Shown: positions 2,233 through 56,078 of the stretch, in pieces
Layout of the letters: every line of letters begins with the position of its first letter
How positions within the stretch are numbered: the first letter of the stretch is position 1
From: the human T2T-CHM13v2.0 reference genome, Homo sapiens
Direction: 5' to 3' (one strand)
DNA: 64,000 bases
Assembly: GCF_009914755.1 (NCBI RefSeq)
Contig: NC_060928.1
Made by a program: the position numbers and the translations under genes
Notes under the pieces: model-generated
Told to the model about the DNA's origin: nothing
Seen by the model: the letters and a program-made list of their open reading frames with translations, nothing else
Databases searched by the model: none

Positions 2233-3022
2233 AAATATATGTATCTCAAAATACATAAGGCTGAGTAATAAGCTGAAAGCTTCCTGGAGAATAAATTGAT
2301 ACACGGGATCTAATTCAAGTTGTATTTCAAGTTTAAATTATAAATGATCTCAATATGCAAGACTATAAAAACTGACAAAAGAAACACATAGTTATATATC
2401 CACACATAATTCTAGTGGAATATATCCAAGTTTTCCAAAACATTCTAAGTAAAGTTGCAAATATATGGTTGCTAAATTAAATTTTATCATTAATACTTTT
2501 CTTTTTTGTTTCTTTTAATCTTACAGTGAGATCTGCCATTATCCCCTGGGCCATCTAATTTTTTATTAGTTAGTTTGTTTGTTTTACTGAGTGTCCAAAT
2601 GTCTCTTGCACTATTGGAGCACATTTTATAATGAAGTGAAAGTGAATGACAGCAAAATATACATCAAGATCCCAGGTTACACTTTCTAATCTGTCTGTAC
2701 ACATGAAGCCACAGCACCATGGGAACTGCGGGCCAGAAGGAAGTTTGAGAAATTTACTCGATGTAGGTTCTGTGCCAAGGATTGCTCACCAGAAGCAAGA
2801 CTAACTTCTCAGACCAATTTTGTGCTTTATATTTAGAGTGCAGAATGGAGGCAAGGGCAACTGTGATTAAGATGACAATATATGCCTCGATAGCACACTT
2901 GAGGAGATAGTTGAATAATGTTTTAAAAGATACAAAGTAGGACAATACATTTCTCTAAAAATTAAAATTACAGAAACTGTCAGATTTTAGTTCAGGAAAA
3001 AGAAGTGAAAGGAAAATATATA

Positions 3023-11750: not shown

Positions 11751-13705
11751 GAGTATAATATTTCAAGGTTGAGTTTAAACGTAATCTTTCTTGATACTCC
11801 AAGAAGAGATTTTTTTCACAAGGATGTTATTTGTCTTTGAAAATATTTTTACCTTTTATAAACGTTTGCAATAAACACACAGGAAGCATTTAGAGAAAAG
11901 TTTCAGAATTCATCATTGGCTGGGTGTTTTGTTTTGACCTCTTGTTTTCTATTTCAACACAAATTTCTGGCTGGGTCTGCTTTTGGAGAGCAGGTATCAT
12001 GTGGATAAAAAGCAAAGGGATGGCTCACGCCCTGGGTGATTGTGCTTAGGTGCGTTGTCATAAATACCCGAGAATAGGGAGAAGGTGGCTATCTCATTAC
12101 GAGAATGGCTTAATGGTCACCACTGACACAGGTCATTAGATAATAAATTCCTGACTGAATGGAGGAGGTAATTAATGAATATACAGACACACACTAGGTG
12201 TTCAATAAACATTAGCTCCCACTTTTACTTTCTTTATATTTTCTTTTTAGTCCATTGTGATTCTATTTGAGAATTTGATAAAAGTTGACTATATGTGAAC
12301 AAGATTGCAAGAGATTAATATCACCTTATAATTACACTATTCAAGGAGGCAATTTAATATACTAAAGACAACATGGAACACAGAGTTAAAAACCTATGGA
12401 TTTTTCACTACTGTGTGAATTGAGCTGACTTTCAACTAATCTCTTTGATTTTAATCTGCTATCTGGTAAATAATACTCACTCCGCCCCATTTGTATGATT
12501 ATTGTGAGGATGAAACTGTAAAGTGCTATTACATTATACTAAACAAGTGTTTCCTTCATTTTTCATTCATGTGTTGAAGCTTATAAGCCATTTCCGTGCT
12601 ATATTACTGTCATATTCATCAATAAGAATAGTAAGCTTTTTAAACATAGTAAGAATTCTAAAATAGTAAGATTTTGACACATTCTAATAAAAAGCTGAAA
12701 CTTAGAAGTTTCATCCCCAGAAGCATAGGGAACTTTAAGTACATTAGATAAGAAAAATCATAAAATACCTCAAACAGTAGAAAATATTCCAAAAAATACT
12801 CTTATTCAGAGTTTTGGAGGCAGAAAATGGAGACGTCACAGCAAAGTAAAGGGCAGAAAACCGAACTTGTGGTCTGGGAGGGACAGAGTGAGGACGAAGC
12901 TGTTTGCAGATGGAGCAGCCCTCTTGATGGACGCACACTGGGGTAGGGAAGTCTGGAGGACAAATGTGTGCAAACCCAAGACGCTCCTCCACCCCAAACG
13001 ATCCCTGAACAGGTCGCCAACAGCTGCAGCTGGCTCTTGGGAGGGAGGAACCTGTCTGGGCACAGGGAGACAGCGGATCATCCTTTCTGAACCAACCTCC
13101 CCCATCCTCCAGCTACATTCAGAGACTAAACCAGGTTTACCTTCAGGTCTTCTGGATTAACCTTACAAGCAGGCACAGATTAATTTCAGAGCTCTCCCCA
13201 AAGTCCTCCCACCTGTTTGCTTGCTTAATGCCTGAAATTCCTTCAAGATGGACCAAAGCGTTTCATTCCACAATTAGAAGTAAAAGGCTTAAATGGCAAT
13301 GCCTGGTAGAAGTAGAACACTAAATAAAATTTATTCTCTCCATACTCATAAAATGTCTGTACTACAACAGACCCATGAGGTCATAAGAGCCAAAGGTTTT
13401 CATGCTCTGCTCAGAACCTGGACCATCAGAGCAGCTCCAGATTGCCATACTGAATTGCAACCATTTTAAGTAAAACCTCCATGACTAAAACAAGTTTATA
13501 AATGATTCACGTTTCTGCAAATGTAAAACTGAGCCCAACAGAGGCGAAACAACCTGCCCACAGTCCCACACAGCAGATCCCAGCTTCCTGATTCCAAACC
13601 GAGAGTTCTGTGGCTCAATGCACTGCCTGTCAGTTTTGAATTCACATTCCACAGACACAACCAGCCACAACCAGTGCGAACTTTCCAAAGTACTTTATTT
13701 TATCA

Positions 13706-13743
13706 ATGACCCACCTTGTATTTTTCGAACATCGCTACTTAGA
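13706..13743. repeat. Cassette copy 1: ATGAC-ccaccttgtatttt-TCGAACATCGCTACTTAGA
   Basis: 13725-13743 is 18/19 identical to 15005-15023. Both copies are preceded by ATGAC 13-14 nt upstream. Confidence 0.75.
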
Positions 13744-13870
13744 CAGATGTATTATTAATCTTTGTGACAGCCTTCCACTAGACTGTAAGCTCATGAAGGG
13801 AGAAATTCTCTTGTTCATCCTTGTATCTCCAGCAGCAGGCATGAGGCTGACCACTCGGAAAACTTTAAAG
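13744..13870. mobile_element. L2 3'-end fragment
   Basis: ccactagactgtaagctcatgaaggg...ttgttcatccttgtatctccagca. Confidence 0.6.
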
Positions 13871-13914
13871 GGGCACTGTCTATGAGCTATTTGATGCACA
13901 CCAACATTATTTCA

Positions 13915-13957
13915 TACTATTATGGCAAAAATCACAATTACTTTTGCTCCAACCTAA
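13915..13957. mobile_element. Half of a MADE1 (Hsmar1-derived MITE)
   Basis: atggcaaaaatcacaattacttttgctccaacctaa followed by TA matches the Hsmar1 terminal inverted repeat. Confidence 0.8.
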
Positions 13958-14947
13958 TACATTAATTTTTTAGAAGAAATGACTTTTTTTATTCAGATTT
14001 ATTTCTCAAGATTTTCTCAATCAGCATGTACTCCACTATACATAACACAGGGTTGTTTGTTTTAAATATCTTTTATGTGTTTATTTTTGTTTCAAATTTC
14101 CTCAAGTTTTAATCTCTGTGGAATGTCAGTTTATAAACGAAAGTTAATCATAATAAATAATAGGAAATAATTTCAGCTTACAATAGCCAAGTTCCATAAC
14201 TCTCACTACAGAGTATTATTCAGATATACAGTAATCATTTTAAAGATAATGAGTTCAACTGAAATTTGGAAAAGTCTTTCTCCCTTATTTTTAACAATAG
14301 AAAAGATATACTAACAAATGTGTGAGGGACTATTTTCTTACACATTATTTAACTAATACATGTATTTAAATTGTTTGCTAGTAAGATTTTTACTGTATTT
14401 TAGTTACAAACAACAAAAATTAAGTTGCCAAATTTTTATTTTTATAACCTAATCAGAGCAACATAATTTTAATAAAGTTATGAATATTTACAATATACTG
14501 TTCCCCTAAAGTCAGTAATTAGATTTGTTTTGTGAAATTCCTAGAGGATATTTTTTAGATCAAATAAAAATATGAAATATTTAATTTTATGAATAGTCCT
14601 TTCACAAATATGCTTATTTTCAAGCTTTTATACCAAGGGATTTATGCTAATTCCACACAAAATTTATAAAACATAAAGAATATGCAGAAACTATGTTCAC
14701 TGAATGAACATAAAACACAATAAAGCCCATGGAAGGTACAAAAAGATTAAAAAAAAAAAACTGTCTTCAAGTGGCTAATAAACGTGGGTGCATTATCAGT
14801 ATATACATTAGACCACCTAAAGCCAACTGAGAGGATATGTATGTGTGTACTGGTTTAAATGCAAAATGTAATGTTCCTTGGTGTAGTAGCCAGTGCTTTA
14901 GAAGAAAATGGGCTGGTTATTCCAGAATATACTTCTCATTAGGATAG

Positions 14948-15270
14948 TTTTTTGTCTGACACAGTCTTACTATGTCACCGAGGCTGATGACAGTGTAAGT
15001 GGTGTCGAACATCGCTATTTAGAGTGCAGTGGTGATAATAGCTCACTGTAACCTCAAACTTCTGGGCTCAAGCGATCCTCCCATCTCAATCTCCTGAACA
15101 GCTTGGGCTACAGGCACATACCACCACAACCAGCTAAGTTTTTTATTTTTTGTAGAGACAAGGTCTCACTGTGTTGCCCAGGCTGGTCTCAAACTCCTGG
15201 CCTCAAGCAATCCTCCTGCCTTGGACTCCCAAAGAGTCAGAATTAAAGGTGTGAGCCATCGTCCCTGGCC
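14948..15270 (-). mobile_element. AluJ-like SINE carrying a ~35-nt non-Alu insertion
   Basis: The Alu consensus aggctg|gagtgcagt is split by 14987-15021. TSD-like flanks taggatagtt / taggagagtt. Confidence 0.9.
14987..15023. repeat. Cassette copy 2: ATGAC-agtgtaagtggtg-TCGAACATCGCTATTTAGA
   Basis: A clean insertion relative to the Alu consensus. It shares both ends with 13706-13743. Confidence 0.8.
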
Positions 15271-15285
15271 TAGGAGAGTTATTAA

Positions 15286-15699
<414 letters not shown>

Positions 15700-17261
15700 T
15701 CAATTTGAAATAAAGTGAAAATTTTAACAATTGCCATTAAGATGTTTTAAGTAAATACAAATTAATTACATCAGAACTGTGGTAAACCTAATTCTCAACA
15801 TTATGTGATCATTAGAGTTATTTTTAAACTGGTTGAGTTTCTACTCCTGTGGAGAGAGGTCAATAAACCAAAATTACCTTCTAAAACTTCTTCCCAGTTA
15901 TCGCAGTGTAAGTTTAGTTCTTTCTGGTGCCAGGTTTAAATGAAGCATGTCAAGTTTAACTGATAATTAGTTGCTATTTATTAATTTTATAAGTAGAAAA
16001 AAACTGATCACATTCATGAGATAACTGGAGACTCTCACAAGGACATACTGGAAAATACTACTGCACTTGAACAATAAAAGAAATGGATTTCCAAACTGAG
16101 TGCAACGTTTTCTGGGCTTTATATAGATGCTTTGTTTCCAGAAATGGAATTCCAGAAAATGAGGGGTTATCTTTGTTGCTGTTTTTAATATCTAGATAAT
16201 AAATATAGTAGAATATTCCATAGAAACTGTTCAAGACTACAAATAGCCTGATGTTGCAGTTCATTGACTTTAATGAGGTCTGATGTGGCACAGTTGTTAT
16301 TTCTATCATTCTTTTCCCACACATAAAGTGTTTCATTATTATGGTACTAGAATGTTTTACCCCAGGATCCTACAGGGGATTTATCATGACAGCTTTTTTT
16401 ATTTCTACTTGTGGGGAAGGGGGCTGCAAGATGTCAGAGAGTAGGGGTTGGGAAATAGGAAAGATATGATTCTTTGTGAGATTACATGCTATGTAACAAG
16501 AGTGGCCATTATCTATACAACGTAATATATTAACATGAAAAACAGTTTCCAAGCTTGCAGAAAAATATTTTAAATTAGCTTTGCAGATTATATGTTTCTA
16601 ATGGAACTGAGAGTGGTAGACACCTCTTTTAAAGATAAAAATGTTAAACTAACAGAAAAAAAATAAGATCAAAAGTTGAATATAGTTTTTCAAATATTCA
16701 ATAAATAAAATTATGTTAATTCTTATTTATCAGAGATTGAAATAATCTTCATGGAAAATTTAAAAAGTGGGCTAATAGAAACTAGGATTTGTTTTTATTA
16801 ATGGCTTTGTGACACCACAAGCTTTTGCCAAATTGCCGATGGATGAATTAAACACAGCAGCACCACATACACCATTACACATATGCAAATGGCCCAGATA
16901 TTTAAGCGGGTGCTAAATTAATCATTTAGCATGATGCCAAAATTTCCACCCAGTAGTAAAAATACTCATAGAATAATAATACAGAACTGGTTTAACACTG
17001 AAAATGAGTGATGGAAAATGAATAAACAGAAAGGCAAGACGAAGTCATTCGAGTAAGAGTAGGAGTAGTTCAGAGAGAGAGGGTAACGCAGAAGTCTGGA
17101 CCCAGTGAAATAAGCACGAAGGCACAGGCATACTAAAACAATTAGTGCAGGAATGATAGAGTAAGATCTGTTTGTGGAAGCCAGAGAACCTAATGAGCCC
17201 CTGTATCATGTGGGGGAAAAGCACAAAATACTAGGAAATAATACAAGGGACAATGATGATG

Positions 17262-55404: not shown

Positions 55405-55753
<349 letters not shown>

Positions 55754-55771
55754 TTATGTTATCTTAGGTAA

Positions 55772-56078
<307 letters not shown>

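What the first reader, a model, noticed from the sequence alone, without database searches (positions are those of the whole stretch)
13706..15023. Two constant-variable-constant ~37-nt cassettes, 1280 bp apart, apparently inserted into unrelated repeats
Seen: ATGAC-ccaccttgtatttt-TCGAACATCGCTACTTAGA (13706-13743) and ATGAC-agtgtaagtggtg-TCGAACATCGCTATTTAGA (14987-15023). The 3' blocks are 18/19 identical and the 13-14 nt cores are unrelated. Copy 2 cleanly splits the Alu consensus aggctg|gagtgcagt. Removing copy 1 leaves ttatca-cagatgtatt, which resembles an L2 3' end, although this is weaker evidence. Both copies keep two intact CpGs in a CpG-depleted region, and neither has a TSD or poly-A. 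Copy 2 can fold as agtggtgt-cga-acatcgct (8 bp, two G-U pairs). Inference: these are recent insertions with a repeat-spacer or recombination-site-like layout that fits no SINE, LINE or MITE I recognise. Possible origins are a locally templated repair insertion (polymerase-theta type), an unknown short mobile cassette or paired site, or an engineered or artefactual sequence. I found no third copy on either strand by eye.
Basis: partly seen in the sequence, partly recalled or inferred. Interest (0 to 1): 0.8.

Follow-up and report, generated by a model that had tools for sequence, protein, structure and literature searches.

The report
Copy-paste repair scar inside an Alu
One "cassette" is ordinary ancient LINE (L2) sequence, and the other is a 35-base patch inside an Alu that was partly copied from it 1.3 kb away, which is an ordinary scar of error-prone DNA repair and not a new mobile element or recombination site.

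Summary
The 19-mer, allowing one mismatch, occurs only at these two places in the 3.1-Gb assembly.

The interpretation does not hold.
- **Copy 1 (13706-13743) is not an insertion.** It lines up base for base with a consensus of the L2-type LINE 3' end that I built from 68 other genomic copies. 27 of 36 columns are identical, and 4-5 of 2000 shuffles score as well. Cutting it out makes the fit worse, 34.0 against 42.5.
- **Copy 2 is a real 35-base insertion (14987-15021).** It is absent from 3 of 3 other Alus in the window.
  - Its 3' part is an 18/19 copy of the L2 stretch 1,280 bases upstream. None of 1000 shuffles reaches that match.
  - Its "variable core" is a near copy (11 of 13 columns) of the Alu bases that directly follow the insertion.
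- **ATGAC.** The shared ATGAC at the same offset may be a second short copy from L2 or may be chance.

Best reading: a single microhomology-mediated, multi-template repair or replication insertion, which is a known kind of mutation. It has no family, no fold and no hit in Rfam, the viral collection or the plasmid collection. Whether it is fixed, polymorphic or specific to the cell line could not be tested here. Interest is low.

The parts
13704..13868 (+). Fragment of an L2-type LINE 3' end (family name recalled). It is the donor context and holds copy 1.
   Evidence: The 18-nt anchor at 13775-13792 has 153 genomic matches against 0 for the reversed control. A profile from 68 other loci hits window 13737-13851 at E 2.2e-16, with an envelope of 13704-13868.
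13706..13743 (+). Copy 1. It is native L2 sequence and the donor of the copied tract.
   Evidence: 27 of 36 columns are identical to L2 consensus positions 119-152, colinear with the rest of the element. 4 of 2000 and 5 of 2000 shuffles reach the score. The fit is 42.5 as the sequence stands and 34.0 with this stretch cut out.
13725..13743 (+). The 19-nt donor tract that was copied into the Alu.
   Evidence: 18/19 identical to 15005-15023 and unique to these two places in the genome. The C at 13738 agrees with the L2 consensus, while copy 2 has T.
14945..15270 (-). Old host Alu, with its poly-T side first on the + strand.
   Evidence: Aligned to three other Alus of the window. It differs at 25.6% of positions from their majority base and keeps 2 of 23 CpG columns. 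There are sub-threshold SRP-type Rfam hits.
14987..15021 (+). The 35-nt insertion in the Alu. This is copy 2 without its last GA.
   Evidence: These columns are gaps in 3 of 3 other Alus.
14987..14991 (+). ATGAC, of unresolved origin. It could be a second short copy from L2 13706-13710, part of an inverted copy of 14966-14977, or chance.
   Evidence: It matches L2 5/5 at an offset of 13 against 14 nt. TGACAGTGTAAG matches the reverse complement of 14966-14977 at 10 of 12 positions. The gapped alignment that includes this stretch is reached by 34 of 3000 shuffles.
14992..15004 (+). The 'variable core' of copy 2. It is an imperfect direct duplicate of the Alu bases 15022-15033.
   Evidence: 11 identical of 13 columns, starting next to the first base after the insertion. 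65 of 5000 shuffles reach the score anywhere in the 60-nt flank.
15005..15023 (+). The tract copied from L2. Its last two bases (GA) overlap the Alu, giving a 2-nt junction microhomology.

Best explanation
**What is there.** Copy 1 is ordinary, old sequence of an L2-type LINE 3' end. Copy 2 is a single 35-base insertion that arose later inside an Alu 1.28 kb downstream.

**How it most likely arose.** A broken or stalled DNA end was extended on borrowed templates by microhomology-mediated template switching. This is the class of events called templated insertions, attributed to polymerase-theta end joining or to MMBIR/FoSTeS-type replication switching.
1. One tract of 17-19 bases was copied from the L2 stretch.
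2. Synthesis then returned to the Alu 13 bases behind the point where it had left. That duplicated those bases, and they now flank the copied tract. The return junction shares GA.
3. The left 5 bases (ATGAC) are either a second short copy from the same L2 stretch or filler.

**Shown:**
- Copy 2 is an insertion.
- Its 19-mer matches copy 1 beyond chance and matches nowhere else in the genome.
- Copy 1 is L2-like and colinear with the element.
- The core of copy 2 resembles the adjoining Alu.

**Inferred:**
- The direction of copying, from copy 1 to copy 2.
- That it was a single event.
- The enzyme.

The element has no function of its own. It lies in a COL25A1 intron.
For: **Copy 2 is an insertion that copies copy 1.**
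- It fills 35 columns that are absent from 3 of 3 other Alus.
- Its best 19-nt window is 18/19 identical to copy 1. 0 of 1000 shuffles reach this, whether against 64 kb or against +-2 kb.
- The 19-mer with up to 1 mismatch occurs only at these 2 places in 3.1 Gb.
- At up to 3 mismatches there are 234 places against 476 for the reversed control, so it is not a repeat family.

**Copy 1 is L2 sequence.**
- 27 of 36 columns are identical to the consensus of 68 other copies. 4 of 2000 and 5 of 2000 shuffles score as well.
- Window 13704-13760 (57 nt) lies against 56 consensus positions with 41 identical columns of 60.
- The fit is 42.5 as the sequence stands and 34.0 with the cassette removed.

**Direction of copying.**
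- At the one position where the 19-mers differ, copy 1 has the L2 consensus base.
- L2 predates Alu (established knowledge).

**The core of copy 2 is a near copy of the adjoining Alu bases.** 11 of 13 columns are identical.

**The insertion is younger than its host.** The Alu keeps 2 of 23 CpG columns and the insertion keeps 2 of 2. By my own arithmetic, 6/300 = 0.02.

**Literature.**
- Germline multi-template insertions of 25 bp or more, about 100 per person and some drawn from up to five templates: PMC8421209, passages read.
- Templated insertions of 3-30 bp with direct or inverted repeats of flanking DNA, short microhomologies and repeated rounds of synthesis: PMC7165422, passages read.
Against: **The L2 reading of copy 1 rests on a diverged repeat.**
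- The 19-mer alone is not significantly L2-like (484 of 2000 shuffles), nor is the 19-mer plus its right flank (149 of 2000).
- The profile search scores the sequence about equally with and without the cassette, 40.1 against 40.4 bits.
- hmmalign instead treats 14 bases (13703-13716, which include ATGAC) as an insert, with low posterior probabilities.
- The left flank alone gives no L2 hit.

**The junctions and the tract do not fit the textbook picture well.**
- Only one junction (GA) has clear microhomology, and the 5' junction has none.
- A 17-19-nt tract copied from 1.28 kb away is longer and more distant than the typical polymerase-theta tract. Those are rarely over 10 bp and come from DNA flanking the break (PMC7165422).

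**The ATGAC offset is unexplained.**
- The near-equal ATGAC offset (13 against 14 nt) has about a 0.003 chance at a fixed offset, by my arithmetic. A simple template-switch model does not predict it.

**The origin of the left 18 bases is ambiguous.**
- There are two competing templates, each at p of about 0.01 before correcting for 12 tests.

**No other human assembly, primate genome or read set was available.**
Confidence: 0.8

Rival explanations
1. Both cassettes are independent insertions of one short unit taken from a source not seen here. This could be an unknown mobile cassette, a paired recombination site, or sequence captured from another molecule. The unit would have a constant 5-nt head, a variable core and a constant 19-nt tail.
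For: - The layout is shared: ATGAC, then 13-14 nt, then the 19-mer. There are 2 matches against 0.02 expected.
- The profile search does not penalise removal of copy 1, 40.4 against 40.1 bits.
- The held assembly has 24 contigs and no mitochondrial genome, so that source was not searched.
Against: - There are only 2 copies in 3.1 Gb and no enrichment of near matches, 234 against 476 for the control.
- 0 of 28 other near-match loci have ATGAC upstream.
- Copy 1 matches the L2 consensus along its whole length and in register.
- Both cores are local sequence: L2 in copy 1 and duplicated Alu in copy 2.
- There are no terminal repeats and no stable fold.
- There is no Rfam, viral or plasmid match.
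Confidence: 0.04
2. The 19-mer match is a chance resemblance between an unrelated filler insertion in the Alu and the L2 fragment.
For: - Over all position pairs of a 64-kb window, about one 18/19 pair is expected even in uniform random sequence, by my arithmetic (4.1e9 pairs times 2.1e-10).
- 34 of 200 randomly chosen real 35-mers of the window have a 17/19 or better match elsewhere, mostly through repeat families.
Against: - For this insertion, which was defined independently by the Alu alignment, 0 of 1000 shuffles reach 18/19.
- The match ends at the insertion's 3' junction.
- The partner lies only 1.28 kb away.
- The tract holds two CpGs, which are rare in this region.
Confidence: 0.03
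3. Copy 2 is not part of the normal human germline sequence. It would be a mutation of the CHM13 cell line or an assembly or polishing error. It could still be a templated insertion if it is a real mutation of the cell line.
For: The insertion is unique in the genome.
Against: - The annotation coordinates are consistent with the sequence.
- The one C/T difference from the donor, and the imperfect duplicate, would not be expected from a simple assembly artefact.
- No adapter-like or vector-like match was found.
Confidence: 0.08
4. Two-step history. First the whole 38-nt L2 stretch was copied into the Alu. Later its 14-nt middle was overwritten by a short template switch to the adjoining Alu bases. 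This would explain the preserved spacing.
For: - ATGAC and the 19-mer sit at nearly the same spacing as in L2, 13 against 14 nt.
- The core resembles the adjoining Alu.
- Short-range template switches are described in great-ape genomes (PMC7954356, seen in a search listing and abstract only).
Against: - It needs two rare events in the same 37 nt.
- A direct-orientation switch would normally add sequence, not replace an equal length.
- No intermediate form is available.
Confidence: 0.05

Closest known systems
Locally templated insertions (TINS) of polymerase-theta-mediated end joining
   Same: - It is a short insertion at one site, made of copies of nearby DNA.
- It contains a direct repeat of the sequence next to the junction, and possibly an inverted one.
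- Junction overlaps are 1-2 nt.
- More than one round or template is involved.
- The copied tract is AT-rich.

The comparison is with PMC7165422, passages read.
   Different: - The main tract is 17-19 nt and comes from 1.28 kb away. Described primary tracts are rarely over 10 bp and are drawn from DNA flanking the break.
- Dependence on the enzyme cannot be tested from sequence.
MMBIR/FoSTeS-type templated insertions (MMB-TI) seen as human germline variants
   Same: - The insertion draws on several templates.
- Microhomology at the switches is slight.
- Synthesis returned to the original locus with a small duplication.
- Such events exist as germline variants of 25 bp or more.

The comparison is with PMC8421209, passages read.
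   Different: That study's search signature was inverted copies within 100 bp. Here the clear tract is a direct copy from 1,280 bp away.
Templated sequence insertion polymorphisms (TSIPs)
   Same: Sequence templated from elsewhere in the genome is inserted at an apparently random site (PMC5110952, abstract only).
   Different: TSIPs are described as templated from distant regions and as falling into LINE-1-mediated or repair classes. This insertion is much shorter than I recall for TSIPs, its donor is on the same strand 1.3 kb away, and it has no poly-A.
SINE/MITE or other short mobile element
   Same: The insertion interrupts an Alu, and there is an imperfect 13-nt direct duplication.
   Different: - The duplication flanks only the 19-mer and not the whole insert.
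- There are two copies in 3.1 Gb, and one of them is native L2 sequence.
- There are no terminal inverted repeats, no poly-A and no family.

Membership tests
Templated insertion (TMEJ / MMBIR class of repair scars) | Extra sequence at one site relative to the ancestral or uninterrupted state | tested here: met
   35 columns are absent from 3 of 3 other Alus. The true ancestral allele was not available.
Templated insertion (TMEJ / MMBIR class of repair scars) | The inserted bases are copies of nearby sequence, direct or inverted | tested here: met
   18/19 identical to L2 1,280 nt upstream, with 0 of 1000 shuffles reaching this. 11 of 13 columns are identical to the adjoining Alu. 5 nt are unresolved.
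Templated insertion (TMEJ / MMBIR class of repair scars) | Microhomology at the template-switch junctions | tested here: inconclusive
   There is a GA overlap at the 3' junction and a possible 1-nt T at the core/19-mer junction. There is none at the 5' junction.
Templated insertion (TMEJ / MMBIR class of repair scars) | Dependence on polymerase theta or on break-induced replication | not testable with these tools
   This needs genetics or a reporter assay.
L2-type LINE 3' end (for copy 1) | Colinear similarity to the family consensus, in register with the conserved anchor | tested here: met
   The profile hit has E 2.2e-16. The cassette is identical at 27 of 36 columns, and 4-5 of 2000 shuffles score as well. 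57 window nt lie against 56 consensus positions. Caveats: hmmalign is ambiguous here, and the family name is recalled, not looked up.
Short mobile element (SINE, MITE) | Multiple dispersed copies in the genome | tested here: not met
   There are 2 places with up to 1 mismatch in 3.1 Gb. At up to 3 mismatches there are 234 places against 476 for the control.
Short mobile element (SINE, MITE) | Target-site duplication flanking the whole element, with terminal repeats or a poly-A tail | tested here: not met
   The duplication lies inside the insert and flanks only the 19-mer. No inverted termini were found and there is no poly-A.
Site-specific recombination site or signal sequence | Conserved arms around a fixed spacer that recur at many sites, often as inverted arms | tested here: not met
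   There are only two sites. The arms are not inverted repeats. The fold is no better than shuffles. One site is plain L2 sequence.
Known structured RNA | Match to an Rfam covariance model | tested here: not met
   There are 7 matches at E up to 1 in 13000-15800. All are below the gathering score and none overlaps either cassette.

The most novel reading that the evidence does not exclude
The preserved layout is not chance. It would record a two-ended event in which both ends of one break primed on the same L2 duplex 14 nt apart. The left end would have copied ATGAC and the right end the 19-mer. They then let go, and the gap was filled from the break's own flank. That would be a natural footprint of both ends of a break being bridged on one ectopic donor 1.3 kb away.
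Probability: 0.15. Interest if true: 0.3.

Novelty: already known. Interest (0 to 1): 0.12.

Why it matters
It matters little in itself. It is one neutral mutation scar in a COL25A1 intron.

It is a tidy natural example of a multi-template insertion whose donor can be named. It also shows how such scars can look like a "constant-variable-constant" element. The constant parts are copied donor sequence, and the variable parts are simply the local sequence at each site.

If comparative data showed intermediate alleles, the locus could show the order of the template switches.

Tried and rejected
**Planted or engineered sequence: rejected.**
- Downstream repeat-mask coordinates still fit the Alu borders.
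- There is no plasmid match and no viral match.

**Dispersed family: rejected.**
- The genome scan at up to 3 mismatches gave 234 places against 476 for the reversed control.
- 0 of 28 other near-match loci have ATGAC upstream.
- The left half of the insertion is unique. The 15 places found include the insertion itself, against 15 for the control.

**Paralogue of the region: none found.** The 341 nt around copy 1 match only themselves.

**Hairpin or structured RNA: rejected**.

**Other ideas tried**
- The core of copy 2 as an inverted copy of the core of copy 1, or as a copy of L2. It is no better than shuffles, 2002 and 3111 of 5000.
- Other templates for the left half within the 64 kb. None was found by ungapped search.
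- L004 (chr1). It matches 30 of 35 bases across the 3' border of copy 1. The first L2 profile gave only hits with E above 1 there, so I treat it as a possible chance match.
- Pairwise nhmmer of the window against single L2 copies. It did not reach the cassette. The first, smaller profile (28 loci) began inside the 19-mer.

**Not available**
- No human reference other than this assembly was available, nor any primate genome or reads.

Full report
**1. The observation**

- Copy 1 is ATGAC, then 14 nt, then a 19-mer, at 13706-13743.
- Copy 2 is ATGAC, then 13 nt, then a 19-mer, at 14987-15023.
- The 19-mers differ at one base, C in copy 1 and T in copy 2.

How often the pieces occur:
- In the window, the 19-mer at up to 3 mismatches has only these 2 matches, against 0.01 expected.
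- The gapped ATGAC...TCGAAC pattern also has only these 2, against 0.02 expected.
- In the whole assembly (3,117,275,501 bases in 24 contigs), the 19-mer at up to 1 mismatch occurs at these 2 places only.
- At up to 3 mismatches there are 234 places against 476 for the reversed control, so there is no family.
- None of the 28 other near-match loci that were fetched has ATGAC within 30 nt upstream.

The repeat-mask intervals in the hub's annotation downstream of the cassettes (55445-55764, 55769-56070) still coincide with Alu borders in the sequence. The cassettes are therefore part of the annotated assembly and were not added to the window.

**2. Copy 2 is an insertion in an Alu**

- I aligned the host Alu with three other Alus of the window. 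The other three have a 35-column gap exactly between GGCTG and GAGTGCAG.
- The insertion is therefore 14987-15021.
- The host Alu is old. It differs at 25.6% of positions from the majority base of the other three, and it keeps 2 of 23 CpG columns. The insertion keeps 2 of 2 CpGs.
- By my arithmetic, the chance that both retained sites fall in the insertion is 6/300 = 0.02. So the insertion is clearly younger than its host.

**3. Copy 1 is not an insertion**

The sequence just downstream of copy 1 contains an 18-nt motif with 153 genomic matches against 0 for the reversed control. From memory I recognise this family as the L2 LINE 3' end.

I fetched 70 such loci and dropped two that were exact duplicates of a third. 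From the remaining 68 I built a profile by iterated nhmmer. The window itself was not used to build it.

Evidence that copy 1 is L2 sequence:
- The profile hits window 13737-13851 at E 2.2e-16, with an envelope of 13704-13868.
- The profile's consensus aligns with copy 1 nearly end to end. 27 of 36 columns are identical, at consensus positions 119-152, in register with the anchor.
- The alignment score is 15. Shuffles average 8.9-9.3, and 4 of 2000 and 5 of 2000 of them reach 15.
- In a semi-global alignment, window 13704-13760 (57 nt) lies against 56 consensus positions, with 41 identical columns of 60 and only single-base gaps.
- The total score is 42.5 as the sequence stands. It drops to 34.0 when the cassette is cut out, because a 14-column gap then opens.
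- At the one base where the two 19-mers differ, copy 1 carries the consensus base.
- Both CpGs of the 19-mer are changes relative to the consensus. They are new CpGs, not surviving old ones.

Limits of this evidence:
- The 19-mer alone is not significantly L2-like (484 of 2000 shuffles), nor is the 19-mer plus its right flank (149 of 2000). The significant part is ATGAC plus the core (31 of 2000).
- The profile search scores the two versions equally, 40.1 bits as is and 40.4 bits with the cassette removed.
- hmmalign puts 13703-13716 in an insert state with low posterior probabilities.
- The left flank shows a weak second resemblance to the same L2 positions (1578 of 2000 shuffles, not significant). 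A small old duplication inside this L2 copy is therefore possible.

On every one of these alignments the cassette is L2-derived sequence and not foreign DNA.

**4. What the insertion is made of**

- **The 3' tract comes from L2.** Against the rest of the 64 kb, on both strands, the best 19-nt window of copy 2 is 18/19, and its partner is copy 1. 0 of 1000 dinucleotide shuffles reach 18. The maximum is 17, in 10 shuffles. Against +-2 kb the maximum is 16.
- **The same test on the strict 35 nt.** Here the observed value is 17, and 3 of 400 shuffles reach it. 34 of 200 randomly chosen real 35-mers of the window also reach 17 or more, mainly through repeat families. This is why the shuffle test, and not raw counts, is the fair control.
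- **The core comes from the adjoining Alu.** The 13-nt core is a near copy of the Alu bases that follow the insertion. 11 of 13 columns are identical, starting next to the first base after the insertion, and 65 of 5000 shuffles score as well anywhere in the 60-nt flank. The 19-mer is therefore flanked by an imperfect direct duplication. That is what results when a polymerase leaves a template, copies elsewhere, and returns 13 nt behind where it left.
- **The left 12 nt have a second possible template.** TGACAGTGTAAG also resembles the reverse complement of 14966-14977 at 10 of 12 positions. The gapped alignment that includes this stretch is reached by 34 of 3000 shuffles.
- **Multiple testing.** After allowing for the 12 comparisons I made, neither assignment of the left 18 nt is secure on shuffle statistics alone. 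What favours the direct duplicate is that it is adjacent.
- **No third template.** No other template for the left half exists in the window or in the genome (15 places including itself, against 15 for the control).

**5. The ATGAC puzzle**

- ATGAC matches L2 5/5 at an almost equal offset. By my arithmetic this has a probability of about 0.003 at a fixed offset +-1. The probability is about 0.05 for any shared 5-mer at a conserved offset anywhere in the left 18 nt.
- A simple template-switch model does not predict the equal spacing.
- It may be chance. It may be a second short copy from the same donor. It may record both ends of a break priming on the same L2 duplex.
- I cannot decide between these without other alleles.

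**6. Mechanism**

The pattern is a short insertion at one site assembled from a direct copy of sequence 1.28 kb away, a duplicate of the adjoining bases and a few unresolved bases, with a 2-nt overlap at the return junction. This is the signature of microhomology-mediated templated insertion.

- Passages I read in PMC7165422 describe polymerase-theta insertions of 3-30 bp. These copy flanking DNA directly or in inverted orientation, use short microhomologies, go through repeated rounds and are AT-rich. Primary tracts are rarely over 10 bp.
- Passages I read in PMC8421209 describe about 100 germline multi-template insertions of 25 bp or more per person, some drawn from up to five templates.
- The 17-19-nt tract and the 1.28-kb distance fit the replication-switch (MMBIR/FoSTeS) description a little better than a classic polymerase-theta tract. 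The enzyme cannot be read from the sequence.

**7. Other readings tested**

- The hairpin is -2.3 kcal/mol, and 82 of 200 shuffles fold at least as well.
- Rfam gives only sub-threshold Alu-type hits away from the cassettes.
- There is no viral-contig match and no plasmid match.
- The region around copy 1 has no paralogue.
- A mobile cassette, a recombination site or an engineered tag is therefore not supported.

**8. What remains open**

- I could not test whether the insertion is fixed, polymorphic or specific to this cell line, or how old it is. No other human or primate sequence and no reads were available.
- Four of four CpGs are intact across the two copies, in a region where the host Alu lost about nine in ten. 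This suggests a fairly recent event, but it is an inference.
- The mitochondrial genome is not in the held assembly and was not searched.

**Verdict**

It is a donor-and-copy pair left by one templated repair insertion, with old L2 sequence as the donor.

Noticed in passing
window 2830-2843: The exact 14-mer TATTTAGAGTGCAG equals the junction between the 19-mer of copy 2 and the Alu (15016-15029). The surrounding sequence at 2740-2920 shows no further likeness, so this is probably chance.
   Followed up: partly
L004 (G000:C1:8306734-8306752, minus strand): A 35-nt stretch is 30/35 identical to window 13719-13753, running across the 3' border of copy 1. The first L2 profile gave only hits with E above 1 at this locus. 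It could be a chance match or a relic of the same repeat region.
   Followed up: partly
window 13651-13674 and 15110-15133: A 24-nt direct repeat, 79% identical. One copy lies just upstream of the L2 fragment and the other is a standard part of the host Alu. They are not colinear with the cassettes, so this is probably chance.
   Followed up: no
window 15029-15035: Right after the duplicated block, the host Alu lacks 2 bases that the three other Alus have (GTGG--TGAT in alignment A1). This might belong to the same repair event or might be an unrelated deletion.
   Followed up: no
window 13681-13702: The left flank of copy 1 weakly resembles the same L2 consensus positions (112-137) that the cassette covers. 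This hints at a small old duplication inside this L2 copy. It is not significant (1578 of 2000 shuffles).
   Followed up: partly
L045, L046, L047 (G000:C1 near 120.19, 145.46 and 146.00 Mb): Three L2 3'-end loci have identical 240-nt stretches, which suggests copies of one segmental duplication on chromosome 1. Two of them were dropped before the profile was built.
   Followed up: no
window 15417-15476: There is a sub-threshold Rfam match to mir-3135 (42 bits against a gathering score of 80, E 7e-06). It lies inside the masked repeat 15356-15727, next to SRP-type (Alu-like) hits. It is likely Alu-derived.
   Followed up: no
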